Assembly: GCA_017477185.1 (NCBI GenBank)
Contig: JAFUXF010000026.1
Location: forward strand, 2,215-66,214
Origin: Alphaproteobacteria bacterium
GTDB lineage: Bacteria > Pseudomonadota > Alphaproteobacteria > RF32 > CAG-239
Direction of reading: 5' to 3'
DNA length: 64,000 bases
Below the pieces are notes generated by a model, which made no database searches, had not been told where the DNA came from, and saw only the letters and a program-made list of their open reading frames with translations. Shown here one piece after another: positions 1,136 to 39,861 of the stretch; position 1 is the stretch's first letter, and every line of letters starts with the position of its first letter. A program made the position numbers and the translations under genes.

Positions 1136-2824
1136 TTAGTTATCGTCATTAGAAGATATCCCAAACCCCTCATCTAAAATGATATTATCATTTTGTTGCT
1201 CTTGAAGATTGTAGGCAACATTGTTTCCAAACAATGCATTTTTTCTATTGTTTGACTGAGAGGTCACATCCGGATTATATGGGTCAGCATCAAAATCATA
1301 TTCTTCTGTTTCTTCACTACCATCATCTTCAACATATTCCCATTCGTACTCTTCACCAGAATCGTCTGAATTTACGGCTTCGCCTTCTTCATCAACATAT
1401 TCCCACTCATATTCCTCATCATTTGAACTATCTTCATCAACAGATTCTAAAATATTATAAGCCGCCTGAACTTCTGTCGTTGCAGAATCCGGTGACTTAT
1501 TCTCTAGAGCAGATACCTCATCGGAAGTAGCAACATTTTCTGTTTCTCCTTCATCCTCATCAACATATTCCCACTCGTATTCTTCATCACCATTTTCAGC
1601 ATTTTCTTCAACGACTTCCGTATCCGATTGTATATTTTCTTGATTTTCCTTCGGTTCTTCTTGTTCTGCAGATACTTCTAAGTTTGCATCTTCCGGCTGA
1701 ATTTCTTCTTTTTCTGCTTTATCCTCTTTAGCTGTCTCTTCTTGATTTTCATTTTCTGTGGCAGGTGTTTCCGTTTTTTCTTCCGGATTTATATCTTTGT
1801 CCTCTGGAATCGGCTCTTCTTTAAGGCTTTTCCATTCTGTATCATTTTCAAATAAATCTTCCGGTGTACCGTCAAAATCCCCCAATAAACTTTCATCTAT
1901 TTCTTCTGTTGTTGTTTCTTCTTCAGCCTCTTCTGGTGCTTCGGCTTGGTGCTTGGACATTTCTTGATAATAGTCGTCTTCAGAAATATCATCAACCGCC
2001 GTTTCTTTTATTGGAGAAGGTGTTTCAACATATTCATCTAAGGACACTGCATCATCCGCAGCATTGTATTTATCGTTATATTCTTGCATTTTAGCATCAT
2101 AATGCGCGCTCATCGGCATTGGGCTGACTGTGCTGAATATTTGATTTTTAAAGAAATCCAAATTTTCGGAATGAACCTTTTGAATCGCCTCTATCAATGC
2201 ATCATTTGACATTTGGCGAATCTCTTTTAAGGCCTGACTGATAATTGCTGAAAATTCTTGTGTTTGCGTATGCGTTATTGTTTTGATTAGCTCAGATTGT
2301 GATTCTGTCGTATTTTTGTTTTGCTTTTCCAAAATTGTCTGCGTCAATTTACTCTGCAAAGCCATAAGGGTTTGAGCTAATTCTTTGGTGTCTTCTTTGC
2401 GATTTTTATCCGAAGTTACCAACGCTTCCTTAAATGCTTTAGCTATTTCATGTGCCATTTCAGGACTTGCCGCTGATTGAACAATTACTCGCGGTTGCTC
2501 CTGATTTTCGCCGGTAGCTGAAAACGTTTTAGCTTCGGCATTTGTTGATGTGCTTTGTTCAAAACTTTCATCTGTTATGCCGGCTTCTTTTTCTAAATCT
2601 GCCAGATACTGCTGAACAACGACGCCTCCCGGTAAAGTGCCTATCAGTCGCTTAATTTCTACCGGTTGCTCTAAGAGCATTTTATTGTAGGCTTCTTTTT
2701 TTTCGGGACTGAATATATGTAATTGGCGGTATAAATTTAAAAGACGTTGAGCAATGATGACAGGATCGCTTTCTGTTCCCATCAGCTTATAATTCTTTGC
2801 AATTTTTCCAGAACTATCCAACAT
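1136..2824 (-). CDS. highly acidic repeat protein (562 aa) with three EEYEWEYV(D/E) aromatic-acidic repeats
   Basis: The C-terminal half is >40% D/E. It has three near-identical DEEYEWEYVDE units and a DPYNPDV motif. No Walker A motif, so it is not VirD4. It sits immediately downstream of virB11. Confidence 0.55.
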   Translation of the reverse strand: MLDSSGKIAKNYKLMGTESDPVIIAQRLLNLYRQLHIFSPEKKEAYNKMLLEQPVEIKRLIGTLPGGVVVQQYLADLEKEAGITDESFEQSTSTNAEAKTFSATGENQEQPRVIVQSAASPEMAHEIAKAFKEALVTSDKNRKEDTKELAQTLMALQSKLTQTILEKQNKNTTESQSELIKTITHTQTQEFSAIISQALKEIRQMSNDALIEAIQKVHSENLDFFKNQIFSTVSPMPMSAHYDAKMQEYNDKYNAADDAVSLDEYVETPSPIKETAVDDISEDDYYQEMSKHQAEAPEEAEEETTTEEIDESLLGDFDGTPEDLFENDTEWKSLKEEPIPEDKDINPEEKTETPATENENQEETAKEDKAEKEEIQPEDANLEVSAEQEEPKENQENIQSDTEVVEENAENGDEEYEWEYVDEDEGETENVATSDEVSALENKSPDSATTEVQAAYNILESVDEDSSNDEEYEWEYVDEEGEAVNSDDSGEEYEWEYVEDDGSEETEEYDFDADPYNPDVTSQSNNRKNALFGNNVAYNLQEQQNDNIILDEGFGISSNDDN

Positions 2825-2930: not shown

Positions 2931-3899
2931 TTATGTTACTTCGGTAACTGCGCGTAAGTTTCCATCTCGGTTTATTTGGACAACGCGTAATTTTTTATGC
3001 ATTTCTTCTATGGTTTTACCTCTGTCAATACTCGGATAGCTATGTAAAATACGATCAACAAAAGCCTCATATGCCGCTTCTGAACTCTCTGCGTGAATCG
3101 TTGCTAAACAGTTATCATGCCCTGATCCCATCAACTCCCATATTGCTCCGGCATTGTTGGTTGAAATCTCACCGCCGATAATCGCATCCGGCGTAAAACG
3201 AACAACCAAGTCAATAATTTTTGCATAGTTAAAATCATTTGTTTGCTCGGTACGAGACATCACAACGTGGACACGATTGGGGTGGGGAACGATTAGTTCT
3301 CGCGTATCCTCGATAGTTATAATTCGTTTATGAATATCTAATATTTTTAATAAATTATTTAAGAATGTTGTTTTACCTGTTGCGGTTGCACCACTAACCA
3401 AAATATGATCACCGCGTTTAATGCTTAACAACAGTCTTTCATAAGGATCTTCCGGATCTTTAATTGCACGGAGCGGATTGATTTTATGAAGTCCTTCGCC
3501 TTGCTTTAAACCATAATCTCCCAGACCAAACGCAACATCGTCGCTATGAACACGAATAGTCAGCGCAATGCCTCCGGTTAAGTCATCTTGATCATACATC
3601 ACATTTTTACCGCAAATCGCAGAAAAACGATGATCTCCCGGAATCGTTGCGTAAACAACCGGTGTTCCCTGTATCGGATCAAACGGAAGTTCATAAGTAT
3701 TAGCAATAATATATAACAAATCCGTTAGATATTCTTTGCTTAATTTTTCATCTTTATACAGCACCCACGGGTAAGCTCTTTTACCGCGTAAACGAAGCCA
3801 TATTTGCCCCGAACGATTGATGGCAACTTCTTCGATATTTTCCTGATTATACCAGTAAGCTAGAGGCCTTAAAACAGATTCTAATACTTTAAAACTCAT
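2931..3899 (-). CDS. virB11: VirB11-family T4SS ATPase
   Basis: Walker A motif SGATATGKTTFLNNLL. Asp-box/His-box context IITIEDTRELI ... GHDNCLATIHAESS. The 322-aa size and position next to VirB10 fit VirB11. Confidence 0.9.
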   Translation of the reverse strand: MSFKVLESVLRPLAYWYNQENIEEVAINRSGQIWLRLRGKRAYPWVLYKDEKLSKEYLTDLLYIIANTYELPFDPIQGTPVVYATIPGDHRFSAICGKNVMYDQDDLTGGIALTIRVHSDDVAFGLGDYGLKQGEGLHKINPLRAIKDPEDPYERLLLSIKRGDHILVSGATATGKTTFLNNLLKILDIHKRIITIEDTRELIVPHPNRVHVVMSRTEQTNDFNYAKIIDLVVRFTPDAIIGGEISTNNAGAIWELMGSGHDNCLATIHAESSEAAYEAFVDRILHSYPSIDRGKTIEEMHKKLRVVQINRDGNLRAVTEVT

Positions 3900-3912: not shown

Positions 3913-6900
3913 TTAGAAAAGTTGCGGTATGCTACTGTTTGAAGAAGATGATGAACTTGTTGTCGGCGGCGGAGGCGGCGGCAATGTTCCCGTCGCGGAG
4001 GCTGGTGCCGGAGTTGTTTGTGTCGGCTTATCGTCGACTAACTTTGCCGTTGGTGCGCTTTCTGCGGCAGATGGCGTATCTCCACCGCTGCCACTATAAA
4101 CGACCTGACCACTTCCTTCTCGAACACGTTTATCCGTCACTGCTTTATCATCAATCAAAACCGGACTCCTTCTATCATCTCCTGTACCTGTACCTTCAGG
4201 ATTTCGATCTTCCGTTCTCATCCATAAATCCGTATTTGGATAAATAATGATTCTTGTTCCTGCAGGAACATAAGTCAGAGGCTTAATATTAGCCTTATCT
4301 TGTAAAATTTGCTCAAAAATCTGATTCATATCTTGCAAGAAATTTTCTCTGGCATCATTTGCTGCCTGCTGTTTTGGTGTTTCAACTTCTCCATTTGAAT
4401 TCTCATCATCTGCCATCATATAAGAAGCATAACTGGTTAAGGCCGTTGTCATAATTGGTAATGTATATTTCTTAAACAACTGTTGATCCAGATACCCTAA
4501 AGCTCCTCCTCGTCCTTGCGCATCTGCTGTCAAACCATTAAATTTGAACATTGAGCCATCCGGACGAATCAGACGCTCCCAAGAAATATCAACTTTGGCA
4601 GAAACAGATGTTGTTTCTGACGTTCCAGTCAGTCCGCCTAATGTTCCTATTAAATGGCTACCCGCCGGAATAATAATATTACGCCCTTCTTCGGCATAAA
4701 CATTGCGTTCGACATATGCTGTTACTGGGGTTGGATGATTACTGTCAATTGATCTGGCAATAACTGCAGGAATAGGCTTGTCTGCCAATATCATTTCACT
4801 CATATCAACACGCCATGAAGACATTGTCTTACTAATCCCCTGATCTGACCAATCTTCTTGCATTCCATCAAAAGACCGTCTATCGACATTTGAACTGATT
4901 TTGCCTACCGACATTCCGCTTCGACGAATTTGCTGAGCAGCTCCTAGTGCGGCCGCTCTTTGAGGATCATATCTTTCTCCCGGTCCGAATCCACCTCCAG
5001 GTCCTAAGTTTGTTCCGGGACCGGTTCCCGTCCCATAAGCACCACCATGACCAAAAGTTCCTTGAGGGACGAACATTTCCGCACCCTTTTGCGGACGCGT
5101 GCTTTCTTCTATACCAATTAGTCCACCCTCTTTATCTATAATCAAACCATCCGGCGTTCGTCGACCAATCTGATTTCCTTTTTTATCGACCACCGTTCCG
5201 TCTTCCATGATATCGCCAAGATACTCTCCATCAGGGGTTAAAGCGACACCAAGTGCTGTCCGATATTTTTCCGTACCTTCCGGAGACACACCAATTTTTG
5301 GAAGTTTCGTTGTCTTATCTTTTGGGCTTCGACTAAACCATACTTTTTTTCGTCCTATAGTGTCAAAAGGATCTAACAGTTTATTTCTCCCTCTATGACC
5401 TATAATATTACCATTTATATCAGTAACTGTTCCATCATCCAGTACTTTGCCGATAACCTTACCCTCTAAATCAATAACCGTTCCATCCGGTAAGACACGA
5501 CCGATAATATTGCCATTTTCATCAAAAACTAGATCATTGGCATTAACACGACCGATAACATTACCGTTTTCATCAACAATTTCACCGGAGGAGTTTACTT
5601 TTCCTATTACATTACCCTCAAAATCAACAACTGTTCCGTCAGGCAAAATTCTACCAATAACATTACCATCCTCATCAAAAGCTAAATGGCTGACATTGGC
5701 TCGTCCGATAACATTACCGTCAGCGTCGACAACTGTTCCATCAGGTAATACTCTTCCTATTTTTTTGCCATTTAAGTCAACGACTGTTCCGTCTTCTAAT
5801 ACCCTTCCAATAAGGTTACCATCTTTATCATAAACTAAATTTGCCCTATCGACTGTGCCAAGAACCTTTCCTTCATCATCAACAATTTCTCCTGCAGCAT
5901 TCAAATGCCCAAGCAATCCGCCACCTAAATTAACAACGGTTCCATCCGGAAGCAACCGGCCGATAATATTACCATCTTCATCATATGCAAATGAAGTTTT
6001 GTTAACTTTTCCTATAATTTTACCATTTGCATCGATAACAGAGCCATCTGCTTGAACTTTTCCTATAATTTTGCCATTCACATCGACAACAGAGCCATCT
6101 GATAAAACATGACCTATAACATTACCATTTTCATCAAAAGCCAACGTGCTAACATCTGCATATCCGATAACATTTCCATCTGCATCAACAACTGTTCCAT
6201 CCGGTTGTATTTTCCCGATGACATTCCCATCTAAATCCACTGCCGTTCCGTCAGCTAAAATTTTACCGATAATGTTGCCGTTTTCATCATATATATAAAC
6301 CGTTGTCCCATCTGATGTGTCTGGGGAGACTATCTTACAATTTTTATCAATAATCTCTCCTCTCAAATTAATTTTTCCTAATATATTACCTTTTTTATCA
6401 AAAGCAAATTTTGTTATATCCGTTTGCCCGATAACCTCACCTTTTCTATTAACGACATTTCCCTGTGCATTAATTTGTCCTATCATTTGGCGGTCTTTAT
6501 TGAAAGCCATGCCTTCGCGATTTATTCTACCGATAATTTGTTCGCTTTTATTAAAAATAAAATTACCGGCATCTGCTTGTCCGATGACTTTATTGCGCTT
6601 ATTAACCACATCTCCGTTTAATTTCAGTCGTCCAATGACATTATCATCTTTATCGACAGCAACACCATCCATTTTCACTTTACCGATAATATTGTCGCTT
6701 TTATCTAATATCAGAGTATGATTATGTGCTGTCCCTAAAAATTTATCTTTTTCATCAAACACACGTCCATCTGCGCTTAACATACCAATCATCTTGCCTG
6801 CTGAATTGACAACCGTGCCATCGATTTTTACTTGGCCGACAACGTTACAGAATAAATCATATACTAAATTATCATCATCAGCGCGACCAATAATGTTTCC

Positions 6901-9900
6901 ATCTTTATCAACAACCGTGCCATCAGGCATAATTCTGCCTATTACGTTTCCCGCTTCATCAAAAGCAAATTTACTGACATCAGCCTGACCGATAATGTTT
7001 CCATCTTTATCAACAACTGTTCCGTCTGCTCTAACCATGCCAATAACATTACCGGCAAGATCCACAACTGTTCCATCAGGCAAAACACGACCGATAACAT
7101 TACCATCTTTATCAAAGACTAAATCACTTATATCTGCGTGCCCGATGACTTTTCCATCTTTATCAACGACTGTCCCGTCTGATTTAACACGACCAATTAC
7201 ATTACCGTTCATATCGACAACTGTTCCATCTGTCAGAACTTTTCCGATAATATTGCCATTTTCATCATAAACATACCGATCGCTTGTCGTTTGCGCAATA
7301 ATATTACCATCCTTATCAATTACATCCCCATTATCTTGTAATTTTCCGATAATATTGCCATCTGCATCTACCACATTGCCTTCAGCATCAACGAATCCTA
7401 TAAACTTGCCATTTGCATCAAATAGTTTTGTCATATATGTTTGAGCGTGATAATATTGCAAAGGATGAGCTTTTGCGATAAATTTTCCGGTAGAAGAATT
7501 TATCTCACCTTTGGCATTCAATAAACCTAAAACTTCGCCATTAAAATCTGTTAGTTCACCTTTAAGCGTTAATTCTCCCAAAATCTGATAGCTGTTGTCT
7601 CGAATGATAAAATCTCGATTACCTCGTCCAATCAATTGATTGTCTTTATCAATCAAGAAACCTTGTTTCATTTCTCCTAAATGACTTCCTTGCGGGGATA
7701 GCACATTTCCTTCTTTGGTAATGTACCCCATTACTTTGTTGTCTAAATCATAAATATAAAAATCATATAGGGCATAACCAATATTTCTGCCTTTATTGGT
7801 TATATTACCATAAAAATCAACCTGTCCGAGATTTTCACCCTTAGAATTTGTAACTTGCCCATCTGTGCCAACATATCCAATATATTTATCCTGTAGATTG
7901 AAGGCGACACGATATTTAAATAAATTTCCAATCGGCATACCGTTTTCGGAATTAACATTACCATTAGGTTGCATATACCCTATTATTTTATTTTTACTAT
8001 CGGCTACTTTACCGGTTAAAAGCGTTCTTCCTAAAATTTGTCCTTTAAAATTCATAACCGGATAATATTCAATTTGATGTGCTAAAACTGCGCCATCTGC
8101 ATTTTTTAAATACCCTCTTCTGTCAACACAACCTAAAACTTCATTATTATAATTCAAAACCTGCCCGTTAGCAGAGACGACACCGATAATGTCTCCCGTA
8201 AAATTAATCATAGCATTAGGGAATGCGGCATAGCCTATATATTCTCCGATTTCACTGACAACCTGTCCGTTAGGAAGAATCCGTCCTTGAACAATATCTC
8301 GATAGTTACGAACATATCCTCGCGGTGTTACTACCCCCAAAAATTCGCATTTATCATCAATAATTGAGGCATACTTAACAAGTTGTCCTACCCATACCTG
8401 ATTATTATCAAAAACATCTCGACCGTTTATAATTTTACCCAAAGTGCTTCCCGTAAAATCACGGACAATTCCGTTTACTCCCGTATAACCGAGGATATTT
8501 CCGCTAAAATTCATAACCATTGCATTATTATAGGCATTACCGTTTTTAGGACTGATGATATTTCTGCTACCGGCTTTATCTTCTACTGTCGATAAATCAG
8601 GCAATATTTTCGCGACATAAGAATCGCCACGGCTCACCATATTGTTAACGCCGATTTGACCTAAAAGTTCCCCCTGATTATTAACGACATTTTCAATATC
8701 TAGCACTTTGCCGATAATTTCATTACGTTCGTTAATACTGATGCCTGCTTGCGTTAATTTGCCGACGGTTATCGCATTTTTATTTTGCAAATCTCCGCTC
8801 GGCATAACATAAGAATCAATACTCCCCTTTTCATCATATATGGCGGACAGTCTATAACATCTTCCGGAATTTTTACCATCTGCCGTAAACATATATCCGA
8901 ACGGAGATATAAATTTCTTTTCTCCGTTATCATAAACGATACCATTGATGCCGGCTATTCCTAAAATTTTGTTATTACTATTGACGGAAAGAATATTATC
9001 AAAACTTCCGCCAACTACTCGTCCGGTATTGTCATAAGCGATATTTCCCAACATATAACCGGTTGCCGTACCATCCATTTTAGCAACGATACCGTTTTTC
9101 AGGGCCTGATGCGTTAATGTCCCTTTATAATCGAAAACAGGACCGGAATTGACAACTTTACCAATCAATTCATCATCTTTACCATAAACAAATCCTCTGG
9201 CACCAATATATCCAATGATTTCCGTGGCTCTGGCAACTTTTCCTTCCGGCAGAACACGCCCTAAATAAGTTCCCGAAAAATCTGTTGCTGTGGCAGCAAT
9301 ATCAATTGTTGAACCAATGACTTCTCCGCTATCTTTTACAACCATTCCGTCTGAACGCATTTTGCCTACTAATGTTTCTTTATTGAAAACCTCACCATTA
9401 TAAGTTACAAACCCCAGATATTTCCCTCGATTATCTATAGCATATTTACTACGGACAATACTTCCGATAATGTTTTCACTATCATTGTATACATAACCAT
9501 TTGCTTTAATATGGCCGATATTTTTACCTTCAAAATCAATAACGCTTCCCCCCGGAGCAATACTTCCGATAAAATCTCCTTGATTAGAAACAACCATTTT
9601 TGATGAAATTAAACGCCCCTCTAAAGCGATATCACTACCGATACGACGAAAAGCATATCCGTCTGCAGAAACAAAACCGATTTCTTGTCCTTGCAGATTG
9701 CTGTATGTTCCGTTTCCGGTAAAACGCCCGATTGTTTGTCCATCATCAGAATAGATCAGCCCCGGGAATAAAACGGCACCGATAATATTAAAAAATTCAT
9801 CAATAACCAAGCCGTTTGGTAGAACTCTAGCAACAATTTTTCCTGAAGGGAGGCGAACTGTTCCATCGTTTCCTACTTTTCCCAAAGGTTTATTATCGTT

Positions 9901-10161
9901 GCCGACAGCCACACCTTGCGGAACCACGCCACCAATCACTTTGCCGTTAAAATCAACGATTAAACTGTCCGCGGTTACATTGCCCAGTAATTCATTTTTC
10001 AGCCCAACAACTTTACCATCAGGAATAACTTTACCGATAACTTCACCATTAAAATTTATTGCTGTAATTTCTTGCGCCGATGCTTCTGCGGCTGAAAAAA
10101 CGTTTATTCCGCCGATTAAACCAGCAATAACAATAAATTTTAACATCCATTTTTTTATCAT
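3913..10161 (-). CDS. virB10: giant VirB10/TrbI-domain protein (~2080 aa): signal peptide, ~1600 aa of degenerate 17-aa repeats, Gly-rich linker, VirB10 C-terminal barrel domain, Pro/Ser-rich tail (CagY-like architecture)
   Basis: The C-terminal segment IPAGSHLIGT, ISWERLIRPDGSMF, TADAQGRGGALGYLDQQLFKKY and YVPAGTRIIIYPNTDLW aligns motif-for-motif with the canonical VirB10 barrel (IPRGSLLVGEY / VVWNRLVRPDG / TDALGRAGLSGHVDNHWFERF / IPQGHEFQVY). The likely true start is the internal ATG at 10159..10161 (MIKKWMLKFIVIAGLIGGINVFSAAEASA-QE), which has an SD-like GGATGG upstream. The ORF track extends the frame to 10254. Confidence 0.85.
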   Translation of the reverse strand: MIKKWMLKFIVIAGLIGGINVFSAAEASAQEITAINFNGEVIGKVIPDGKVVGLKNELLGNVTADSLIVDFNGKVIGGVVPQGVAVGNDNKPLGKVGNDGTVRLPSGKIVARVLPNGLVIDEFFNIIGAVLFPGLIYSDDGQTIGRFTGNGTYSNLQGQEIGFVSADGYAFRRIGSDIALEGRLISSKMVVSNQGDFIGSIAPGGSVIDFEGKNIGHIKANGYVYNDSENIIGSIVRSKYAIDNRGKYLGFVTYNGEVFNKETLVGKMRSDGMVVKDSGEVIGSTIDIAATATDFSGTYLGRVLPEGKVARATEIIGYIGARGFVYGKDDELIGKVVNSGPVFDYKGTLTHQALKNGIVAKMDGTATGYMLGNIAYDNTGRVVGGSFDNILSVNSNNKILGIAGINGIVYDNGEKKFISPFGYMFTADGKNSGRCYRLSAIYDEKGSIDSYVMPSGDLQNKNAITVGKLTQAGISINERNEIIGKVLDIENVVNNQGELLGQIGVNNMVSRGDSYVAKILPDLSTVEDKAGSRNIISPKNGNAYNNAMVMNFSGNILGYTGVNGIVRDFTGSTLGKIINGRDVFDNNQVWVGQLVKYASIIDDKCEFLGVVTPRGYVRNYRDIVQGRILPNGQVVSEIGEYIGYAAFPNAMINFTGDIIGVVSANGQVLNYNNEVLGCVDRRGYLKNADGAVLAHQIEYYPVMNFKGQILGRTLLTGKVADSKNKIIGYMQPNGNVNSENGMPIGNLFKYRVAFNLQDKYIGYVGTDGQVTNSKGENLGQVDFYGNITNKGRNIGYALYDFYIYDLDNKVMGYITKEGNVLSPQGSHLGEMKQGFLIDKDNQLIGRGNRDFIIRDNSYQILGELTLKGELTDFNGEVLGLLNAKGEINSSTGKFIAKAHPLQYYHAQTYMTKLFDANGKFIGFVDAEGNVVDADGNIIGKLQDNGDVIDKDGNIIAQTTSDRYVYDENGNIIGKVLTDGTVVDMNGNVIGRVKSDGTVVDKDGKVIGHADISDLVFDKDGNVIGRVLPDGTVVDLAGNVIGMVRADGTVVDKDGNIIGQADVSKFAFDEAGNVIGRIMPDGTVVDKDGNIIGRADDDNLVYDLFCNVVGQVKIDGTVVNSAGKMIGMLSADGRVFDEKDKFLGTAHNHTLILDKSDNIIGKVKMDGVAVDKDDNVIGRLKLNGDVVNKRNKVIGQADAGNFIFNKSEQIIGRINREGMAFNKDRQMIGQINAQGNVVNRKGEVIGQTDITKFAFDKKGNILGKINLRGEIIDKNCKIVSPDTSDGTTVYIYDENGNIIGKILADGTAVDLDGNVIGKIQPDGTVVDADGNVIGYADVSTLAFDENGNVIGHVLSDGSVVDVNGKIIGKVQADGSVIDANGKIIGKVNKTSFAYDEDGNIIGRLLPDGTVVNLGGGLLGHLNAAGEIVDDEGKVLGTVDRANLVYDKDGNLIGRVLEDGTVVDLNGKKIGRVLPDGTVVDADGNVIGRANVSHLAFDEDGNVIGRILPDGTVVDFEGNVIGKVNSSGEIVDENGNVIGRVNANDLVFDENGNIIGRVLPDGTVIDLEGKVIGKVLDDGTVTDINGNIIGHRGRNKLLDPFDTIGRKKVWFSRSPKDKTTKLPKIGVSPEGTEKYRTALGVALTPDGEYLGDIMEDGTVVDKKGNQIGRRTPDGLIIDKEGGLIGIEESTRPQKGAEMFVPQGTFGHGGAYGTGTGPGTNLGPGGGFGPGERYDPQRAAALGAAQQIRRSGMSVGKISSNVDRRSFDGMQEDWSDQGISKTMSSWRVDMSEMILADKPIPAVIARSIDSNHPTPVTAYVERNVYAEEGRNIIIPAGSHLIGTLGGLTGTSETTSVSAKVDISWERLIRPDGSMFKFNGLTADAQGRGGALGYLDQQLFKKYTLPIMTTALTSYASYMMADDENSNGEVETPKQQAANDARENFLQDMNQIFEQILQDKANIKPLTYVPAGTRIIIYPNTDLWMRTEDRNPEGTGTGDDRRSPVLIDDKAVTDKRVREGSGQVVYSGSGGDTPSAAESAPTAKLVDDKPTQTTPAPASATGTLPPPPPPTTSSSSSSNSSIPQLF
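5300..9950 (-). repeat. in-frame degenerate tandem repeat array (~51-bp period; peptide unit ~DxxGNVIGRVLPDGTVV) inside the giant virB10 gene
   Basis: The protein track shows dozens of consecutive GN(V/I)IG(R/K)(V/I)xxDGTV(V/I)D units. The most regular copies are at ~5300..7260, and progressively degenerate copies run toward the N-terminus. The mirror-image plus-strand ORFs (PITLPSxSTTVPSG...) are the antisense reading of the same repeats. Confidence 0.65.
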
Positions 10162-10186
10162 ATTCCATCCAGCCTTTAATTTTTTA

Positions 10187-13100
10187 TCAGTTCCTACGGT
10201 TTTTAGCAACTTCCGGCAAAGCATACCCAGAAATCTGCTTATCCATATTAACAAATGAGCCGTTATTTTTTATGTATCCGCTTTCTTTTCCCATTTCGTC
10301 GACAACAATTCCTTTAGCATTCAATCTCCCGATATATTTGCCTTCATTATTCAATATTGTTGCTCCAATTTTATATATTTTCCCCAAAATATTTTCGTTA
10401 CTATCAACTGCTAAATCGTTAGAGACGACACGTCCGACAACGACACCGCTGTTGTTGGTAATTTTACCATCAAAATTAACATAGCCTACCATTTTATCTG
10501 AGTTATCAATAACAATATCGCCGTCCAAAATATCCCCATACAACTTTCCATTACTGCTGATAACTTGTCCATCAGATAACACTCTGCCGATAACGATATT
10601 TTCTTTGTCGGCAACGGCCCCATTGGGCAGTGTTACGCCAGCTAAATTACCACCGAAATCAATAATTGTACCTCGTTTAAGTAACGTCAAATTTTTATCC
10701 GATGAGCCACCAGGAAGAATTGCAGAAATAACCGTGTTATTCAAATCAAGAACGTCCCCTAATGTGTTTGTATATCCTTGATAATTTCCCCAAATATCTA
10801 CTAAAATATTTTCCGGTAATATTTCACCAATCAATTTTCCTTGTACATCAACAGCTTTACCATCGGAAGTCGTATGCCCGACAACTTTACCATTTACGCT
10901 CAAAATCTCACCATTTTTCAAGCTGTAGCCTAAATATTGACCATCATACCCTACCGCAGCCCCTGTTTTGACAAGACCTCCCAGATATTCTCCTTTGTCA
11001 TTAAAGAAATTACCTTTGCCATCTATTTTTCCAAGTATTGCCCCATACGGACTGACAACTTTTCCATCATAAGATACAAGCCCTAAGCCTTTACCATTGA
11101 AATCAACAACTTGTCCTTGCTCAACGGGAACACCTATTTGATGATTGAAAAATCCAAAACCATCACCTATAATTTTTCCTAAATTACCACCTCTCATATT
11201 ATAAACACTCCCATCAGGGAATAATCTTCCTAAAAATTCTCCTGAAGCATCTATAAAGGAGGTTTTTTCATTCATCAGCACGCCAATAACTTTATTTGAC
11301 GAATCAGCAACTAAATTATTTACAAAAATCTTTCCTGCTTCCTTACCGACTAATCCGATTTCTCCGTTAGAATCGACAATATTGAGGAAATTTCCATTTA
11401 AGTCATACGCATAATTTTTTTCAAGAACATGACCTATGTACTTTCCATCATCATCAAAAACATCGCCATTTATGCCAACGCATCCTATTATATCCGAATT
11501 TGAGGAAACAACGTGATTATCATCAGATATTCGTCCCAAAAACAAACCATCATATCCTATTGCAACACCTTGTTTTCTTATTGCTCCGACAATATCTCCC
11601 TGTTCGTTTAAAACTGTCCCGTCCGGATTTATACAACCGACATACGTTCCTTCCGGTGTTTTAACAATACCATCAGAACCAGCCTCTCCGAGATATACGC
11701 AATTATTATTATATACAGAACCGATTTTGCTTATCTCTCCCACATATTTTCCCGTACTGTCAACGACGACACCATCGAACATAATTTTCAGCTTGGTATC
11801 CGTTATCCCTTTCATAATTTTACCGTTTTTATCAAGGTATCCGATATTTTTACAGCCATACCCGACAGCCATGCCGCTTCGTACCAATTTACCAATAACT
11901 TCCGAACCTGCCGGATCTTTTACCAAACCATTTGCCAAAACCCTGCCTATAACTTGCCCTTCTTTTTCGACAGTTCCTTGATTAGAAATCGTTCCTAAAA
12001 CGCTACCATCAGGAGCTATCGGTAGCATTTGCATCTGCACCAAGGCACCAATACTCTTACTGAATCGGCTTATAATATTCCCTTGAGCATCAATGTAGCC
12101 GATTAATTGACCACTACCATCATAGATTTGACCATCTGATGTTGCATACCCGATAATTCGCCCATTTTTATCCAAAACAAGATTAACGAAATCCCCTGCT
12201 TTGCCGATAATATTACCATTGGCGTCAACCAATGTTCCATCATCAAGCATCTTCCCTAAAATATTTCCTTTAAAGTCCACAACATTTCCGTTTTCATCCA
12301 CATATCCTATGACGTTACCATCTTTATCATAGGCTAACCGCCGCAAATCATCAACACTCAACTCTGACGCATAACCGATGACATTACCATCTTTATCAAC
12401 AACTGTTCCATCAGAAAGAACTGTACCAATAATATTTCCATTGGCATCCACAACATTTCCGTTTTCATCAATATATCCTATCATATTGCCGTTTTTATCA
12501 TAAGCAATTTGCGGCCGATGTGCTGCTTTAGCTGTTCCGATAAGATTGCCTTTTGCATCGTAAATATTACCGTTTTTATCTATTTTACCAATAACGTTTC
12601 CGTTTAAATCCACCATGGTGCCATCCGGATTAACTTTTCCAACTAATTTTCCGTTGGCATCATACATATTACCGTCGGCATCAACATAGCCCATAATCTT
12701 ACCATTAGAATCATATAGAATCTGCTTGGCTGCCTGTTCAATATTTTTTGCTTTTCCGATTAGACGACCATTCGCATCATACATATTGCCGTCTTTATCT
12801 AATTTACCAATAATATTTCCTTTTAAATCAGTAATTGTTCCATCCGGATTAACCTTTCCTATCAGCCTACCGCTGGCATCATACATATTACCATCGGCAT
12901 CTATTCGACCAATAATATTGCCATTATTATCATACAAAATTTTTTCTTTATTTTTGGATGCTGCGGCTTTTCCAATAACGTTGCCATTATTATCCACCAC
13001 CGTGCCATCAGCCAACATCCGTCCTATAGCATTTCCATCCTTATCGACAACTGTTCCATCCGGATTAACATAACCAATGACTTTACCGTTAGCATCATAA

Positions 13101-14380
13101 ACTAATCGACGATTTTCGTCGGCATGCCCTTTTATATTTTTAGTAATAACATTGCCATCTTTGTCAATAAAGCCAACGACCTTCCCATCTTTATCAACGA
13201 CGCTGCCATCAGGCATCACAATACCTAAAACATGTCCGTCTTTATCTATTGCAACACGGCCTTGCTTACTGACGCGCCCGAGGATTTTTCCATCAAGTCC
13301 GATAACCTCACCATTCTTATTTAGGCGACCAATCACATTTCCTTCGCTATCAACCACACTACCATCTGATAAAACACGCCCGATAATATTACCATTTTCA
13401 TCATAAACAAAACCGGCATCAACAGCTTGTCCGATAACATTTCCATCGGCATCAACAACTGTCCCGTCAGGTAACGCTCTTCCTATTATTTTTCCGTTTG
13501 CATCAACAACCGTTCCATCTGCGAGAACTCTACCAATGACATTGCCATTTGCATCATAAACTAATCGCTGATTTTCTGCCACTCCAATAATATTGCCGTT
13601 TTCATCTACAATCATGCCATTGGCATTAACTCTTCCTATTACATTGCCATCGGCATCTCGAACATACCCGTCCTCATCTATTGTGCCAAGAATTTCACCA
13701 TTAGCTCCTATTGCATAACGAACATTTGTATTTGAAGCAGGTGTCCCCTTTGCTAACCCAAGACTTGTCGGATCACAAAAATTACAATCTTCTTTGAGAA
13801 TCGCTTTACCCTCAACAGGCACTTTTTGCGATTTATTGCTCCCTGAACTTAAATTAGCTTCACGCCATGTAATAATAAAATTATTTTGAACATTACCGGC
13901 AACGACAGGTACCCAGTTCATTGTTATATCACAAGTCTGATGACCTCTTAACACTTGGTTACTGCACTCTTCTTTGAACGAAAAGCCATCAAAAGGCGGC
14001 TCGGCTAGTTCAACCGAGACAATACGAACACTGACCCGTCCTGTTGTCCCTATCGTCAACACATTTTTAGCATCTGTTCCAATTACAACTTGCCCCATAG
14101 CGATAGGATTAGGTGTTGTTGTAATTGGTAATTCTCCATTATCAACCGTTTCAAATTCTATACTTTCCTGAATCGGGTCTTCACTCCGGATATCTAAGGC
14201 ATCATCACTTGCCGTAAATACCGGTGCCATATATTGCTCCTCTTCCTCCTCATCACGCATTAAAAGTAATAAACCAAGAATAAAAATGACTAAAGAAATA
14301 ACACCAACCATAATAATTATATGGTTAGTTTTTCTTACATAATTTTCTGATCTGGTTAAAATTTCTCTTTCATCTTTCAT
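10187..14380 (-). CDS. giant membrane-anchored repeat protein (1397 aa) with the same GNVIGRV..DGTVVD repeat family
   Basis: The N-terminus MKDEREILTRSENYVRKTNH plus TM IIIMVGVISLVIFILGLLLLM gives a type II anchor, like the VirB10 N-terminus. It is followed by an acidic stretch, a Cys-containing domain, then ~35 repeat units. The gene lies between virB9 and the giant virB10, separated from the latter by a 25-nt spacer. Confidence 0.7.
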   Translation of the reverse strand: MKDEREILTRSENYVRKTNHIIIMVGVISLVIFILGLLLLMRDEEEEEQYMAPVFTASDDALDIRSEDPIQESIEFETVDNGELPITTTPNPIAMGQVVIGTDAKNVLTIGTTGRVSVRIVSVELAEPPFDGFSFKEECSNQVLRGHQTCDITMNWVPVVAGNVQNNFIITWREANLSSGSNKSQKVPVEGKAILKEDCNFCDPTSLGLAKGTPASNTNVRYAIGANGEILGTIDEDGYVRDADGNVIGRVNANGMIVDENGNIIGVAENQRLVYDANGNVIGRVLADGTVVDANGKIIGRALPDGTVVDADGNVIGQAVDAGFVYDENGNIIGRVLSDGSVVDSEGNVIGRLNKNGEVIGLDGKILGRVSKQGRVAIDKDGHVLGIVMPDGSVVDKDGKVVGFIDKDGNVITKNIKGHADENRRLVYDANGKVIGYVNPDGTVVDKDGNAIGRMLADGTVVDNNGNVIGKAAASKNKEKILYDNNGNIIGRIDADGNMYDASGRLIGKVNPDGTITDLKGNIIGKLDKDGNMYDANGRLIGKAKNIEQAAKQILYDSNGKIMGYVDADGNMYDANGKLVGKVNPDGTMVDLNGNVIGKIDKNGNIYDAKGNLIGTAKAAHRPQIAYDKNGNMIGYIDENGNVVDANGNIIGTVLSDGTVVDKDGNVIGYASELSVDDLRRLAYDKDGNVIGYVDENGNVVDFKGNILGKMLDDGTLVDANGNIIGKAGDFVNLVLDKNGRIIGYATSDGQIYDGSGQLIGYIDAQGNIISRFSKSIGALVQMQMLPIAPDGSVLGTISNQGTVEKEGQVIGRVLANGLVKDPAGSEVIGKLVRSGMAVGYGCKNIGYLDKNGKIMKGITDTKLKIMFDGVVVDSTGKYVGEISKIGSVYNNNCVYLGEAGSDGIVKTPEGTYVGCINPDGTVLNEQGDIVGAIRKQGVAIGYDGLFLGRISDDNHVVSSNSDIIGCVGINGDVFDDDGKYIGHVLEKNYAYDLNGNFLNIVDSNGEIGLVGKEAGKIFVNNLVADSSNKVIGVLMNEKTSFIDASGEFLGRLFPDGSVYNMRGGNLGKIIGDGFGFFNHQIGVPVEQGQVVDFNGKGLGLVSYDGKVVSPYGAILGKIDGKGNFFNDKGEYLGGLVKTGAAVGYDGQYLGYSLKNGEILSVNGKVVGHTTSDGKAVDVQGKLIGEILPENILVDIWGNYQGYTNTLGDVLDLNNTVISAILPGGSSDKNLTLLKRGTIIDFGGNLAGVTLPNGAVADKENIVIGRVLSDGQVISSNGKLYGDILDGDIVIDNSDKMVGYVNFDGKITNNSGVVVGRVVSNDLAVDSNENILGKIYKIGATILNNEGKYIGRLNAKGIVVDEMGKESGYIKNNGSFVNMDKQISGYALPEVAKNRRN
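10300..13710 (-). repeat. in-frame degenerate tandem repeat array (same ~17-aa family) inside the 1397-aa gene
   Basis: Repeated DANGNVIGRVLADGTVVD / DENGNIIGRVLSDGSVVD-type units are visible in the translation. Degeneracy increases toward the C-terminus. Confidence 0.6.
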
Positions 14381-15960
14381 TGCGTTCTAACCACGCTGCA
14401 AAATACACCATTTCTTCCTAATCGACTGCAGACATCATCACCTTCCTGCAACGTCTCAATCGGACCAACTCTTAAATGAAACAGTTCTTTTCCTTGTCCG
14501 TCAGCAGCCGCATCAACCGAGAAAAATGGTTCATATTGTTTTAATGTATCAGAATATTTTTTAGATAACGAGCCCCATAAGCTCTCTAAATTACTGACAT
14601 TACTATCTGTCCCCAACTCTATAGATATATTGCTGTTGTCTGCAAACATCAGTCCTTGTCCTTTACCTCCTCTGTTAGCATAACTGCCTTCCGGTGCATA
14701 ATTTCCGTCGTTTGTAATACGTTGCATATTGGCATAATCAAAATCCCCCTGATTATTTCCATATCCAGGACGATAAGTAATATTCACGCCACCGTTTGGA
14801 TTTTGGCTGTAATTTGATAAAACAAAATTTCCACTGCCACTTGACATATTGTCTCCACCACTATTATCACCCAATCCGCCATTCTTGCCTGGGATTGGGG
14901 CCGGAACTTGCCATTGATGTTCATCTAAATCTTTAGTAGTCGGTGCAAATTCTAATCCGGCTTCATCAGAACGTCTCAATTTCAGACAAACCATTCTCTT
15001 ACCATTCCGCATAACCATATCGCCTATACCCTCAACGATGATTAAGCGATTATTGGGTCCTTTTGTTCTAAAGCCAACCGGCACTTCCAGACGTTCAACA
15101 ATCAGCGTTACGATAGGGCGTTGCGTCATTGTCAATGATTTTTCCCCTAAATCAATATAAGTAAAAATATCATCTCGCCATACTCGTTCCGGTGCAATGA
15201 CAACATCCTCAGGATTTGGAATATAGACTTCAACATCAAACCTAAATTTTGAAGCATCTAGAGGAATAGATTTTATCCAATCTTCTCTTTGAAAACTTTT
15301 AGTAAATAAAGAATCGACAGATTTATTCGGCCCACCTCTATAGGTTGAGGCATTTACTCCGCTGTGTCCACCAATACTTCCCGCAGAAACTCCTGCACCA
15401 CGAGATCCTGACGGACCGTCAATCACATCAACATCGATAATTGAGTTTGTCAGTCGTTCTGTGTTTACCCCTTCACTCTTCAGATAAAAGACATACTTAT
15501 TACCGCTTCTGCCAAAGATCACAATATTTGTATCCACTCCAACATTTGCTCCTTTTTTAGGATAAAGGAGCACTGTGTTCGGACCGGAAATTTGTCCGTC
15601 AAAGCTCGAGCTATCACCTAAATAAATATCCTCAACTAATTCCCAACTCGGAAAATTAAGTAAAGTAATCATTCCTTCTCTCACACGAATTGGCAATATT
15701 AAATCCGGAGACCAATAATATTTGGAATAAGCAGGCTTGCTTTGCCCTTCTCCCAAGTTTTGCAACGGATCAAGCCACGCACTTTGCGTCATTCCCAAAG
15801 CATTAAAGCCGGCATATCCCATATTCATAGGCATGTACATTCCCTGACTCTGATCAGCATTCTGATCCAAGCTCCCCATAGTTGCCTGAGAGCGTGCATT
15901 TTGAGTACCGCTCATTATGATGATAATTAAAAATAAAATTCGACCAAATGCCTTAATCAT
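14377..15960 (-). CDS. virB9: enlarged VirB9-like protein (527 aa): signal peptide, VirB9 N-domain, G/N-rich spacer, possible C-terminal SPOR-like domain
   Basis: The VirB9 N-domain pattern is present (GDSSSFDGQISGPNTVLLYPKKGANVGVDTNIVIFGRSGNKYVFYLKS, resembling 'gn.l.vKP...TNL.V.Td.r.Y.F.L'). The C-terminal ...GKELFHLRVGPIETLQEGDDVCSRLGRNGVFCSVV resembles the yRVrvGPf...A..lC..L...G..C.vv end of SPOR domains. The size is comparable to CagX-type VirB9 proteins. Confidence 0.7.
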   Translation of the reverse strand: MIKAFGRILFLIIIIMSGTQNARSQATMGSLDQNADQSQGMYMPMNMGYAGFNALGMTQSAWLDPLQNLGEGQSKPAYSKYYWSPDLILPIRVREGMITLLNFPSWELVEDIYLGDSSSFDGQISGPNTVLLYPKKGANVGVDTNIVIFGRSGNKYVFYLKSEGVNTERLTNSIIDVDVIDGPSGSRGAGVSAGSIGGHSGVNASTYRGGPNKSVDSLFTKSFQREDWIKSIPLDASKFRFDVEVYIPNPEDVVIAPERVWRDDIFTYIDLGEKSLTMTQRPIVTLIVERLEVPVGFRTKGPNNRLIIVEGIGDMVMRNGKRMVCLKLRRSDEAGLEFAPTTKDLDEHQWQVPAPIPGKNGGLGDNSGGDNMSSGSGNFVLSNYSQNPNGGVNITYRPGYGNNQGDFDYANMQRITNDGNYAPEGSYANRGGKGQGLMFADNSNISIELGTDSNVSNLESLWGSLSKKYSDTLKQYEPFFSVDAAADGQGKELFHLRVGPIETLQEGDDVCSRLGRNGVFCSVVRTQ

Positions 15961-29530: not shown

Positions 29531-30070
29531 CTATTCAAAAGACCACATTATATTGTTTTTCTCTTGGCAATATTGTTTGGCCTGCTTACGACTTAACGGT
29601 AATCCCTTATTTCCCCAACTAAAATCATATGTTCCCTTATCATTTTGAATACTCATTGAAATTAAGCCCAGTTTATCTTGCTCTTTTCCCTGAAAAATTG
29701 CTAATTCAATGCATTCTTTTTTATCTAATTCTCGATAAGTAATAACAAAACTTCTTGCCCCCGGCATCACTTGTGTCCCGTCACCATCAGCACCGATTAC
29801 GACTTCTTTGCCAAGAGTATTAAAGATTTTATTATCTTTCAGCTCTCCTTGATAAAACTTTTGCTCTATTGCAACTGTATTGTTCAGTCCCCAGTAATCC
29901 GGACGATTGCGGTAGTACATCCGAACTTTCTCGGTCATTTTTATCAATTCTTTGTCTGCAGCAATAATCTCTGAAGGAGGACGTTTAAAACTGAAGATTA
30001 CACCCAACAAAATGATAAAAAATAATGAAAACAGCCATATATACAAAATCAATTTTTCTTTATTTATCAT
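29531..30070 (-). CDS. small N-terminally anchored protein with two C-terminal Cys, non-canonical pilin-like candidate (position of R64 pilS)
   Basis: The ATG at 30068..30070 lies 1 nt after the stop of the GspF-like gene. It gives MINKEK + LILYIWLFSLFFIILLGVIFSF, a short polar leader plus ~22-aa hydrophobic helix, followed by a ~150-aa domain with Cys...Cys ~50 aa apart. It lacks the G/F/E5 prepilin peptidase site, so calling it a pilin is tentative. Confidence 0.35.
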   Translation of the reverse strand: MINKEKLILYIWLFSLFFIILLGVIFSFKRPPSEIIAADKELIKMTEKVRMYYRNRPDYWGLNNTVAIEQKFYQGELKDNKIFNTLGKEVVIGADGDGTQVMPGARSFVITYRELDKKECIELAIFQGKEQDKLGLISMSIQNDKGTYDFSWGNKGLPLSRKQAKQYCQEKNNIMWSFE

Positions 30071-30071
30071 G

Positions 30072-31187: not shown

Positions 31188-31198
31188 GTGTTTTTTCC

Positions 31199-32875: not shown

Positions 32876-32881
32876 TTGTCA

Positions 32882-35603: not shown

Positions 35604-35622
35604 CGGTTTTCCTCTTTTATTC

Positions 35623-37290: not shown

Positions 37291-37291
37291 T

Positions 37292-38005: not shown

Positions 38006-38012
38006 TTACAGC

Positions 38013-39784: not shown

Positions 39785-39861
39785 GTCAGCGTAGCTCATC
39801 AGGATAGAGCACCAGTTTCCTAAACTGGGGGCAGTGGGTTCAAGTCCCGCCGCTGACGCCA
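39785..39861 (+). tRNA. tRNA-Arg (anticodon CCT)
   Basis: Hand-folded cloverleaf. Acceptor stem GTCAGCG/CGCTGAC. D arm GCTC-ATCAGGAT-AGAGC. Anticodon stem CCAGT/ACTGG with loop TTCCTAA (anticodon CCT). T arm GTGGG-TTCAAGT-CCCGC. Discriminator G, encoded CCA. Confidence 0.85.

What the first reader, a model, noticed from the sequence alone, without database searches (positions are those of the whole stretch)
5300..13710. Approximately 8 kb of near-contiguous coding tandem repeats shared by two adjacent genes: a recombination-prone and assembly-fragile region
Two neighbouring genes in the same orientation contain long arrays of the same degenerate ~51-bp unit. This is the substrate for intragenic and intergenic unequal recombination: repeat expansion or contraction, or gene fusion or deletion between the two genes. 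It is also a classic source of collapsed or chimeric assemblies. The antisense frames generate many spurious long ORFs (PITLPSLSTTVPSG...), which confirms the periodicity at the DNA level.
Basis: seen in the sequence. Interest (0 to 1): 0.55.

Follow-up and report, generated by a model that had tools for sequence, protein, structure and literature searches.

The report
Split giant VirB10 with hairpin repeats
The 8 kb of "repeats" encodes about 160 copies of a 17-residue beta-hairpin in two adjacent type IV secretion genes that together fill the virB10 position; the copies are old, diverged at the DNA level and stably inherited, so this is not a recombination or assembly hot spot.

Summary
The 51-nt periodicity is real: z = 12.8 against the in-frame background, against z below 1 in control genes. 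It is shared by two adjacent minus-strand genes. It is a protein-level periodicity, a 17-aa beta-hairpin of the Pfam beta-flower/DUF3659 families, not a DNA tandem repeat.

At the DNA level:
- Median identity between units is 45%.
- No self-alignment of 100 nt or more reaches 80%.
- The longest exact repeat is 26 bp, and every 27-mer is unique.

The closest relative has saturated synonymous divergence, yet gene B matches it at 1397 vs 1397 aa with no gaps. Only two "variable arrays" (about 5392-7446 and 12101-13735) have gained or lost modules between more distant species, in gene A by exactly 51 aa.

The genes sit in a VirB-type type IV secretion operon, between virB9 and virB11. Gene B has a VirB10-type N-terminal membrane anchor, an Ig-like domain and repeats. 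Gene A has a signal peptide, repeats and the VirB10/TrbI C-terminal domain. More distant relatives have one fused 2000-2600 aa protein in the same slot. The window therefore carries a partitioned giant VirB10. I found no description of this in the searchable literature.

The parts
3913..10161 (-). Gene A: VirB10 C-terminal half. Signal peptide, about 92 beta-hairpin units, then the TrbI/VirB10 domain (2082 aa from the ATG at 10161).
   Evidence: Pfam TrbI 9.2e-35, Bflower_2 2.2e-127, DUF3659 1.6e-53. NCBIfam VirB10 2.3e-30 and ComB10 5.2e-33. PDB ComB10 2bhv 1.2e-21, plus CagY, TrwE and TraF. Lies between the virB9-like and virB11-like genes.
10069..10161 (-). Gene A signal peptide (MIKKWMLKFIVIAGLIGGINVFSAAEASA|QE).
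   Evidence: Read from the sequence. An AxA site directly before a conserved QEITAI(N/D)F is present in the orthologues inspected. Moderate hydrophobicity, 1.88, against 3.25 for the gene B transmembrane segment.
7447..10068 (-). Gene A fixed array (aa 32 to about 904, ending at PLQYY): about 51 degenerate hairpins.
   Evidence: Length is 868-872 aa in every relative measured. 75% aa identity to L001 with pN/pS 0.23. Lag-51 z = 6.7.
5392..7446 (-). Gene A variable (regular) array: 13 modules of 51 aa, each of 3 hairpins.
   Evidence: Register shown. The PLQYY-to-TPDGEYLG interval is 127-968 aa among relatives and 737 aa here. The 51-aa indels against L002 and L003 map here. Module nt identity has median 0.55 and maximum 0.72.
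4216..4800 (-). TrbI/VirB10 beta-barrel domain of gene A (aa about 1788-1982).
   Evidence: 93% aa identity to L001.
10187..14380 (-). Gene B: VirB10 N-terminal half. Cytoplasmic tail, one transmembrane helix, an Ig-like domain, then about 69 hairpin units (1397 aa).
   Evidence: Pfam Bflower_2 3.3e-102, Bflower 6.3e-48. Transmembrane segment at about aa 20-42, hydrophobicity 3.25. The N-terminal 230 aa is homologous to the N-terminus of fused Bflower+TrbI proteins.
13736..14380 (-). Gene B N-terminal module (tail, transmembrane helix, choice-of-anchor-D-like Ig domain).
   Evidence: NCBIfam choice_anch_D 2e-05, below its cut-off. The representatives search gives 455 hits, including N-terminal matches in proteins of 1930-2363 aa that end in TrbI.
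12101..13735 (-). Gene B variable array (aa 216-760).
   Evidence: 204-622 aa among 21 orthologues; the low-occupancy alignment columns map to aa 420-678.
10190..12100 (-). Gene B fixed array (aa 761-1397).
   Evidence: 621-655 aa in all 21 orthologues, mostly 636-638.
10162..10189 (-). Junction between the two genes: TGA TAA double stop of gene B, a 25-nt spacer with a purine-rich stretch, then the gene A ATG.
14377..15960 (-). virB9/CagX homologue with a weak C-terminal SPOR match. Its stop codon overlaps the gene B start (ATGA).
2931..3899 (-). virB11 homologue.
   Evidence: TIGR02788 VirB11 8.3e-41.

Best explanation
The interval is the repeat-coding part of two genes that jointly occupy the virB10 position of a chromosomal VirB-type type IV secretion operon in an uncultured gut or rumen alphaproteobacterium.

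Shown:
- Gene A is a signal peptide, about 1600 aa of 17-aa beta-hairpin repeats (beta-flower/DUF3659 families) and the VirB10/TrbI outer-membrane core domain.
- Gene B is a VirB10-type N-terminal tail, one transmembrane helix, an Ig-like domain and about 1170 aa of the same repeats.
- The same operon in more distant relatives has one fused protein with both ends.
- The two-gene form is conserved in every related locus that covered the region.
- Each gene has a fixed-length ancient array and a variable array.
- The DNA copies are too diverged to act as efficient recombination substrates and are inherited unit for unit.

Inferred:
- The ancestral giant VirB10 was partitioned, either by fission or by tandem duplication followed by complementary loss.
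- Gene B supplies the inner-membrane anchor and gene A the outer-membrane core.
- The hairpin arrays form a large periplasmic scaffold through which the two halves associate.
- The variable arrays grow and shrink slowly, by rare short-homology or illegitimate recombination of 153-nt modules. An expansion burst occurred in the ancestor of the window/L001/L002/L003 clade.
For: Operon context: VirB4, two VirB8, VirB9/CagX and VirB11.

Domain assignments.

Fused homologues: P0151, P0158, P0169 and P0176 carry an N-terminus like that of gene B, Bflower repeats and TrbI. Locus L021 reads VirB8-VirB8-CagX-[one 2350 aa protein]-VirB11. More than 100 fused clusters occur in Alphaproteobacteria genomes assembled from metagenomes.

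Conservation of the two-gene form: every one of the 20 GTDB loci that covered the region and loci L023-L026.

Stability:
- Gene B against L001 has 0 gaps at 73% nt identity, and positional orthologues beat paralogues in 67 of 67 windows.
- pS is saturated at about 0.66-0.76, with pN/pS of 0.2-0.3 in the arrays.
- Three species at 93-94.5% nt identity have 0-2 gap positions.

DNA divergence.

Module-level indels and fixed versus variable arrays.

Structure: AlphaFold2 models of 4 and 6 modules are all beta-hairpin, with pLDDT 88.6 and 83.2 and pTM 0.77 and 0.63.
Against: - No experiment and no direct evidence show that the gene A and gene B proteins interact, or where the arrays are located. 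CagY repeats have been reported as surface-exposed.
- Fission versus duplication could not be resolved. Fused proteins align colinearly with both A and B at about 27% identity, and window-level matches go to the consensus-like blocks.
- Model coordinates could not be inspected, so closed flowers cannot be told apart from an open solenoid. Foldseek gave only local matches, TM-score 0.09-0.20.
- Recombination is not absent in the family. L007 has a 122-bp exact repeat, P0005 carries a mosaic third repeat copy and P0004 a perfect 423-bp tandem duplication.
- No conspecific sequences of the window organism were found, so its own population variation is untested.
Confidence: 0.72

Rival explanations
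1. One reading: an active recombination or contingency locus, like H. pylori cagY. Frequent in-frame unequal recombination within and between the two genes changes repeat number or fuses the genes, tuning or varying the secretion system.
For: - All 18 intragenic and all 16 intergenic exact repeats of 16 bp or more would give in-frame products.
- Module-sized indels separate species.
- A related species has rare length alleles.
- L007 has a 122-bp exact repeat, and L002 has 252 exact repeats of 16 bp or more.
- The cagY precedent (PMC2194252, PMC3585145).
Against: - Units have 45% median nt identity and the longest exact repeat is 26 bp.
- There is no unit indel against L001 despite saturated dS, and no concerted evolution.
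- Lengths are identical across species at 93-94.5% nt identity.
- Only 4 of the 120 listed clusters in the abundant relative carry a module-level change.
- The two-gene architecture is invariant across the clade.
Confidence: 0.08
2. Assembly artefact: the array length or the gene split is a product of collapsed or chimeric assembly, or of a frameshift or nonsense sequencing error in one giant gene.
For: Periodic sequence. One relative contig (P0004/L027) carries a perfect 423-bp tandem duplication that could be an assembler loop.
Against: - No repeated k-mer at k of 27 or more.
- L001, an independent assembly of another species, has the same unit count.
- The split is present in all relatives that covered the region, with a double stop, a spacer and a conserved signal peptide with a cleavage site.
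- Both products are under purifying selection.
Confidence: 0.02
3. The arrays are not a periplasmic scaffold but an exposed adhesin or ligand-binding surface, binding a host or prey cell or cell-wall glycan. This would resemble the reported role of the CagY repeats or the choline/glucan-binding hairpin repeats. Gene B would then be an independent accessory protein rather than half of VirB10.
For: - Structural neighbours are Rhs/YD shells, teneurin and choline-binding modules, as local matches only.
- The VirB9 homologue carries a weak SPOR match.
- An adjacent type IVb pilus cluster suggests cell contact.
Against: - The N-terminus of gene B is homologous to the N-terminus of fused VirB10 proteins and sits in the virB10 slot.
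- Gene B has an N-in membrane anchor, so its array faces the periplasm.
- The arrays are conserved unit for unit, without the diversification expected of an exposed antigen.
Confidence: 0.18

Closest known systems
H. pylori CagY (VirB10 orthologue with repeat regions)
   Same: A VirB10/TrbI C-terminal domain preceded by a very large in-frame repeat region in a type IV secretion operon. Size is about 2000 aa. Repeat number changes by recombination in evolution. PDB CagY chains match the gene A C-terminus.
   Different: - CagY repeats are alpha-helical modules (PMC2581425) encoded by hundreds of long exact DNA repeats that recombine within hosts (PMC2194252, PMC3585145).
- Here the repeats are beta-hairpins, the DNA copies are diverged (26 bp maximum exact match) and the arrays are stable between species.
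- CagY is one polypeptide, whereas here the anchor and the core are on two.
Canonical VirB10/TrbI/ComB10 (A. tumefaciens VirB10, R388 TrwE, pKM101 TraF, H. pylori ComB10)
   Same: C-terminal beta-barrel domain. Gene position between virB9 and virB11. N-in bitopic anchor, here on gene B.
   Different: Canonical proteins are about 380-450 aa, with anchor, proline-rich linker and barrel on one chain. Here about 2800 aa of hairpin repeats are inserted and the protein is partitioned into two genes.
Beta-flower fold families PF21784/PF21785 and DUF3659 (Durairaj et al. 2023, PMC10584680)
   Same: Pfam matches far above the gathering scores. Hairpin-tip [DNEQ]xxG motif (D-x-x-G-N-x-I-G). Predicted short antiparallel hairpins.
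   Different: The described beta-flowers are single small domains of about 96 aa, some of them lipoproteins. Here about 160 hairpins form arrays of 1100-1600 aa fused to a secretion-system core. Closure into 4-, 5- or 6-fold barrels was not verified, and no central helix is predicted.
Rickettsiales vir homologue (rvh) type IV secretion system
   Same: An alphaproteobacterial P-type system with duplicated scaffold genes. Rickettsia islet C is virB9a-virB8a-virB7-virB8b-virB9b-virB10-virB11-virD4 (PMC2653234). The window has two adjacent virB8 genes, then virB9, genes B and A, and virB11.
   Different: RvhB10 is a single protein of ordinary architecture. No VirD4 was recognised in the window. 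The window also has a type IVb pilus cluster upstream.
Rhs/YD-repeat proteins
   Same: Weak sequence matches (PF05593 1.8e-25 and 3.7e-19; PDB Rhs 1.3e-3) and local structural matches. Both have YD-x-x-G hairpin motifs.
   Different: The period is 17 aa rather than about 20-21 aa. There is no Rhs core or toxin domain. TM-scores of 0.12-0.13 show no global similarity.

Membership tests
VirB10/TrbI family (gene A) | C-terminal TrbI beta-barrel domain | tested here: met
   Pfam PF03743 9.2e-35 covering 2-187 of 188. NCBIfam VirB10 2.3e-30 and ComB10 5.2e-33, both below the curated full-length cut-offs. PDB 2bhv 1.2e-21.
VirB10/TrbI family (gene A) | Gene located between virB9 and virB11 in a VirB-type operon | tested here: met
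   Order is VirB9 14377-15960, gene B, gene A, VirB11 2931-3899. The same order is seen in relatives.
VirB10/TrbI family (gene A) | N-terminal cytoplasmic tail and a single inner-membrane transmembrane helix on the same polypeptide | tested here: not met
   Gene A starts with a cleavable-type signal peptide. The anchor is on gene B and on the same chain only in fused relatives.
VirB10/TrbI family (gene A) | Alpha-helical antenna forming the outer-membrane pore | not tested
   The alignment to ComB10 covers residues 39-233 of 246, but the antenna region was not examined or modelled.
Beta-flower clan CL0395 (PF21784/PF21785) | Sequence match above the Pfam gathering score, with the [DNEQ]xxG hairpin-tip motif | tested here: met
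   Bflower_2 scores 417.6 and 336.5 bits against a cut-off of 38. Bflower scores 155 and 162 bits against a cut-off of 25. The motif is visible.
Beta-flower clan CL0395 (PF21784/PF21785) | Closed shallow barrel of 8, 10 or 12 strands with 4-, 5- or 6-fold symmetry | tested here: inconclusive
pTM falls from 0.77 (204 aa) to 0.63 (306 aa). There is no global PDB match and no AlphaFold DB library was on hand.
cagY-type recombination switch | Many long exact direct DNA repeats (16 bp or more; mean 35-48 bp; up to 156 bp) | tested here: not met
   34 repeats of 16 bp or more in 10.5 kb, mean 18.2 bp, maximum 26 bp, against 235-302 in the cagY middle repeat region (PMC2194252).
cagY-type recombination switch | Length variants among closely related strains or within hosts | tested here: inconclusive
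   No conspecific sequences of the window organism were found. In relatives there is no variation across 93-100% identical genomes, and rare alleles occur in one abundant species.
Rhs/YD-repeat family | YD repeats forming a shell, with an Rhs core and a C-terminal toxin | tested here: not met
   Only weak repeat-level matches. There is no Rhs core or toxin domain, and the C-terminus is TrbI.

The most novel reading that the evidence does not exclude
A previously undescribed architectural class of type IV secretion system in gut- and rumen-associated Alphaproteobacteria. In this class VirB10 carries 1500-2800 aa of beta-flower-type hairpin arrays. In one clade, which includes this window, VirB10 is partitioned into an inner-membrane-anchored protein and an outer-membrane-core protein. 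These would have to re-associate non-covalently through their homologous arrays to couple inner-membrane energy to the outer-membrane gate.
Probability: 0.45. Interest if true: 0.65.

Novelty: new variant of a known kind. Interest (0 to 1): 0.45.

Why it matters
For the question asked, the region can be trusted as assembled. It should not be flagged as a hypervariable or contingency locus. It also shows that protein-level periodicity does not imply DNA-level recombination potential.

For biology, VirB10 is thought to transmit energy-dependent conformational changes from the inner membrane to the outer-membrane gate as a single envelope-spanning polypeptide. A natural system with the two ends on separate proteins, each carrying over 1100 aa of hairpin repeats, offers a test of whether covalent continuity is needed.

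It also gives the recently named beta-flower fold a concrete cellular context. The system is common in human and animal gut metagenomes: one orthologue is indexed in 598 blocks of the contig collection. Its gene products are annotated only as hypothetical, DUF3659 or TrbI family proteins.

Tried and rejected
1. Tandem Repeats Finder found almost nothing, so unit-anchored and BLAST self-comparisons were used instead.
2. Fission versus tandem duplication was not resolved. Whole-protein BLAST of fused relatives against A and B, and a 120-aa sliding-window scan, were both dominated by generic repeat similarity to the consensus-like blocks.
3. An exact-sequence look-up of the window proteins and a metagenome scan found no conspecifics. 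Within-population heterogeneity of this species could not be tested.
4. A first alignment of overlapping windows, intended as input for structure prediction, aligned on self-identity and was discarded.
5. The Foldseek search against PDB gave only local hairpin matches. Model coordinates are not exposed, so the shape (beads or rod) could not be measured.
6. The plasmid protein search failed because the chosen coordinates were out of frame, and it was not repeated.
7. The 562-aa ORF after virB11 and the 1401-aa ORF in the virB6 position gave no family or PDB matches. No VirD4 or relaxase was identified.
8. Read-through or frameshift fusion of B and A was rejected. There is a double stop TGA TAA, and the junction layout differs between relatives.
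9. Literature searches for beta-flower, DUF3659, PF21785 and split VirB10 found no description of this architecture. A search combining RF32 with type IV secretion returned no papers.

Full report
**Observation**

The interval 5300-13710 lies inside two adjacent minus-strand ORFs. Gene A is 3913..10161 from its ATG; the ORF extends to a TTG at 10254. Gene B is 10187..14380. Both translate into long runs of a 17-aa unit, roughly x-D-G-T-V-V-D-x-x-G-N-V-I-G-R-V.

The periodicity is statistically solid:
- DNA autocorrelation at lag 51 is 0.412, against 0.303 +/- 0.009 for other in-frame lags (z = 12.8).
- Two control genes of the same operon give z below 1.
- A profile of the unit matches only these two genes in the whole window.

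The description as "8 kb of tandem repeats" overstates the DNA-level picture:
- Tandem Repeats Finder reports only 6004-6135 and 6954-7272.
- 115 anchored 51-nt units are 45% identical at the median. About 1% of pairs reach 70%.
- The best long self-alignments are 65-75% identical. None of 100 nt or more reaches 80%.
- The longest exact direct repeat is 26 bp, and every k-mer of 27 nt or longer is unique in the window.
- DNA-detectable similarity is confined to about 5396-7430 and about 12200-13720.

**What it is**

The genes lie in a long minus-strand operon. In order it contains VirB4 (26729-29218), a TrbC/VirB2-like C-terminal match (21996-23645), two VirB8 paralogues, a VirB9/CagX homologue (14377-15960), gene B, gene A and VirB11 (2931-3899).

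Gene A ends in a TrbI/VirB10 domain. The support is Pfam 9.2e-35, NCBIfam VirB10 2.3e-30 and PDB ComB10 1.2e-21, with further matches to CagY, TrwE and TraF. It begins with a signal peptide. The AxA site sits directly before a conserved mature N-terminus, QEITAI(N/D)F, in the orthologues inspected.

Gene B begins with a short basic tail, one strongly hydrophobic helix and a weak choice-of-anchor-D-like Ig domain.

Both repeat regions match the Pfam beta-flower families and DUF3659 far above threshold. The fold was named by Durairaj et al. 2023 (PMC10584680).

AlphaFold2 models of four and six 51-aa modules are confident and consist only of short beta-hairpins. pLDDT is 88.6 and 83.2, and pTM is 0.77 and 0.63. 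Foldseek finds only local resemblance to Rhs/YD shells, Tc-toxin cocoons, teneurin and choline-binding modules, with TM-scores of 0.09-0.20.

**Relatives**

A genome scan returned 20 loci from uncultured gut and rumen Alphaproteobacteria. Every locus that covers the region has the same gene order: VirB9, gene B, gene A, VirB11.

An exhaustive search with the first 230 aa of gene B found this module at the N-terminus of single proteins of 1930-2363 aa. These proteins also carry beta-flower repeats and a C-terminal TrbI domain.

In locus L021 one such 2350-aa protein sits alone between CagX and VirB11, after two VirB8 genes. More than 100 clusters of this fused form exist in Alphaproteobacteria genomes assembled from metagenomes. 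They are annotated as hypothetical, DUF3659 or TrbI/VirB10 family proteins.

Genes B and A are therefore the two halves of a giant VirB10. A single chain carrying both anchor and barrel is the canonical VirB10 architecture, so the fused state is most parsimoniously ancestral. I could not decide whether the split arose by fission or by tandem duplication with complementary loss. Duplication and divergence of scaffold genes is a known habit of alphaproteobacterial rvh systems (PMC2653234).

**Dynamics of the arrays**

Each gene has a fixed array and a variable array.

| Part | Length among relatives |
|---|---|
| Gene A, mature N-terminus to PLQYY (fixed) | 868-872 aa |
| Gene A, PLQYY to TPDGEYLG (variable) | 127-968 aa; 737 aa here |
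| Gene B, aa 761-1397 (fixed) | 621-655 aa |
| Gene B, aa 216-760 (variable) | 204-622 aa |

Comparison with the closest relative, L001:
- Gene B matches at 1397 vs 1397 aa, 77.7% identical, with no gap.
- Gene A shows no module-level indel; its gaps are 7 aa or shorter.
- This holds although third codon positions are only 49% identical and pS is saturated.

Against L002 and L003 the gene A indels are exactly 51 aa, and they lie in the variable array.

Tests for concerted evolution:
- Every 153-nt window of gene B is closer to its positional orthologue (median 0.745) than to its best paralogue (median 0.516), 67 of 67.
- In the gene A variable array, orthologues (0.69) and best paralogues (0.66) are about equally similar.
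- There is therefore no sign of recent homogenisation.

The arrays are under purifying selection, with pN/pS of 0.2-0.3 at saturated pS. They are less constrained than the TrbI core, which is 93% identical in protein sequence.

In a second sub-clade, three species 93-94.5% identical in DNA, together with independent re-assemblies, have both genes colinear with 0-2 gap positions.

**Is recombination ever seen?**

Yes, but rarely, and mainly where young copies exist. In an abundant relative (P0118, 1569 aa):
- The common 1552-aa form is only a different start-codon call.
- A rare allele, P0005 (1618 aa, 3 contigs), has a third, mosaic copy of a 57-aa super-repeat.
- One contig, P0004, has a perfect 423-bp tandem duplication joined at a 5-bp microhomology. 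This could be real or an assembler loop.

Elsewhere in the family, L007 has a 122-bp exact repeat and L002 has many short ones. The family therefore evolves by slow birth and death of modules. The window belongs to a clade (with L001, L002 and L003) whose gene A variable array expanded about five-fold in an ancestor and has since diverged.

**Comparison with cagY**

CagY is a VirB10 orthologue whose middle repeat region holds 235-302 exact direct repeats of 16 bp or more. Their mean sizes are 35-48 bp, they reach 156 bp, and they recombine in frame within hosts (PMC2194252, PMC3585145).

Here there are 34 such repeats, with mean 18 bp and maximum 26 bp. All are in frame. From general knowledge, RecA-dependent exchange in E. 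coli needs roughly 23-27 bp of perfect identity and falls steeply with divergence. Only a handful of pairs here reach that threshold.

**Verdict**

The more interesting result is the architecture. This is a partitioned, repeat-expanded VirB10 in a type IV secretion system widespread in gut Alphaproteobacteria. I found no description of it in the searchable literature.

The proposed mechanism is inference and remains to be tested. In it, gene B is the inner-membrane anchor, gene A is the outer-membrane core, and the hairpin arrays form a periplasmic scaffold that joins them.

Noticed in passing
window 29531-39707 (- strand); tRNA at 39785-39861 (+): A type IVb-pilus-like gene cluster lies directly upstream of the type IV secretion genes, in the same orientation. 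It includes a PilS-like prepilin, T2SSF, a T2SSE ATPase, PilO, a secretin and TcpQ. A tRNA-Arg(CCT) flanks its far end. The remainder of the window (40-63 kb) is ordinary chromosomal housekeeping: cmk, rpsA, accA, accD, rmuC.
   Followed up: partly
window 14377-15960 (-): The VirB9/CagX homologue is long (527 aa) and has a weak C-terminal SPOR (peptidoglycan-binding) match, 3.8e-4. Its stop codon overlaps the gene B start codon (ATGA), which suggests translational coupling.
   Followed up: partly
window 17779-21984 (-) and 1136-2824 (-): A 1401-aa ORF in the usual virB6 position and a 562-aa ORF directly after virB11 have no Pfam or NCBIfam match and no significant PDB sequence match. An ORF of similar size follows virB11 in relatives. 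No VirD4 coupling protein or relaxase was recognised anywhere in the window.
   Followed up: partly
window 3913-4215 (-), C-terminal tail of gene A: The gene A orthologues inspected, including those from distant species, end in a Pro/Ser-rich tail followed by a conserved terminal motif, ...(S/I)(V/I)PQLF. This may be a sorting or interaction signal. The tail is otherwise the least conserved part of the protein (49% identity to L001).
   Followed up: no
L023 6001-10710 (P0118) and L007 6791-11521: In P0118 two 57-aa repeats are 88% identical in protein but share only 14 of 50 synonymous-capable codons, where 22.5 are expected from codon usage. In L007 the same two repeats share 41 of 50 codons and a 122-bp exact run. 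One lineage therefore shows homogenisation or a young duplication, and the other shows unusually strong synonymous divergence, possibly from selection against DNA homology.
   Followed up: partly
L027 3001-8136 (P0004): A single metagenome contig carries a perfect 423-bp in-frame tandem duplication. It joins a hairpin of the variable array to one of the three hairpins next to the TrbI domain at a GACGG microhomology. It is either a very recent illegitimate recombination or an assembler loop.
   Followed up: partly
window genes A and B compared with loci L001-L023: The lengths of the variable arrays of gene A and gene B are weakly correlated across 13 loci (Spearman 0.59, p = 0.03, not corrected for phylogeny). 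This would fit the two arrays spanning the same distance, but it may simply reflect shared ancestry.
   Followed up: partly
window 12190-12970 (-), gene B aa about 471-730: Part of the gene B variable array has a different super-period: modules of about 73 aa, made of four hairpins plus a short linker. Gene A has three-hairpin, 51-aa modules. The best Pfam 4-fold beta-flower match falls here, at aa 554-622.
   Followed up: no
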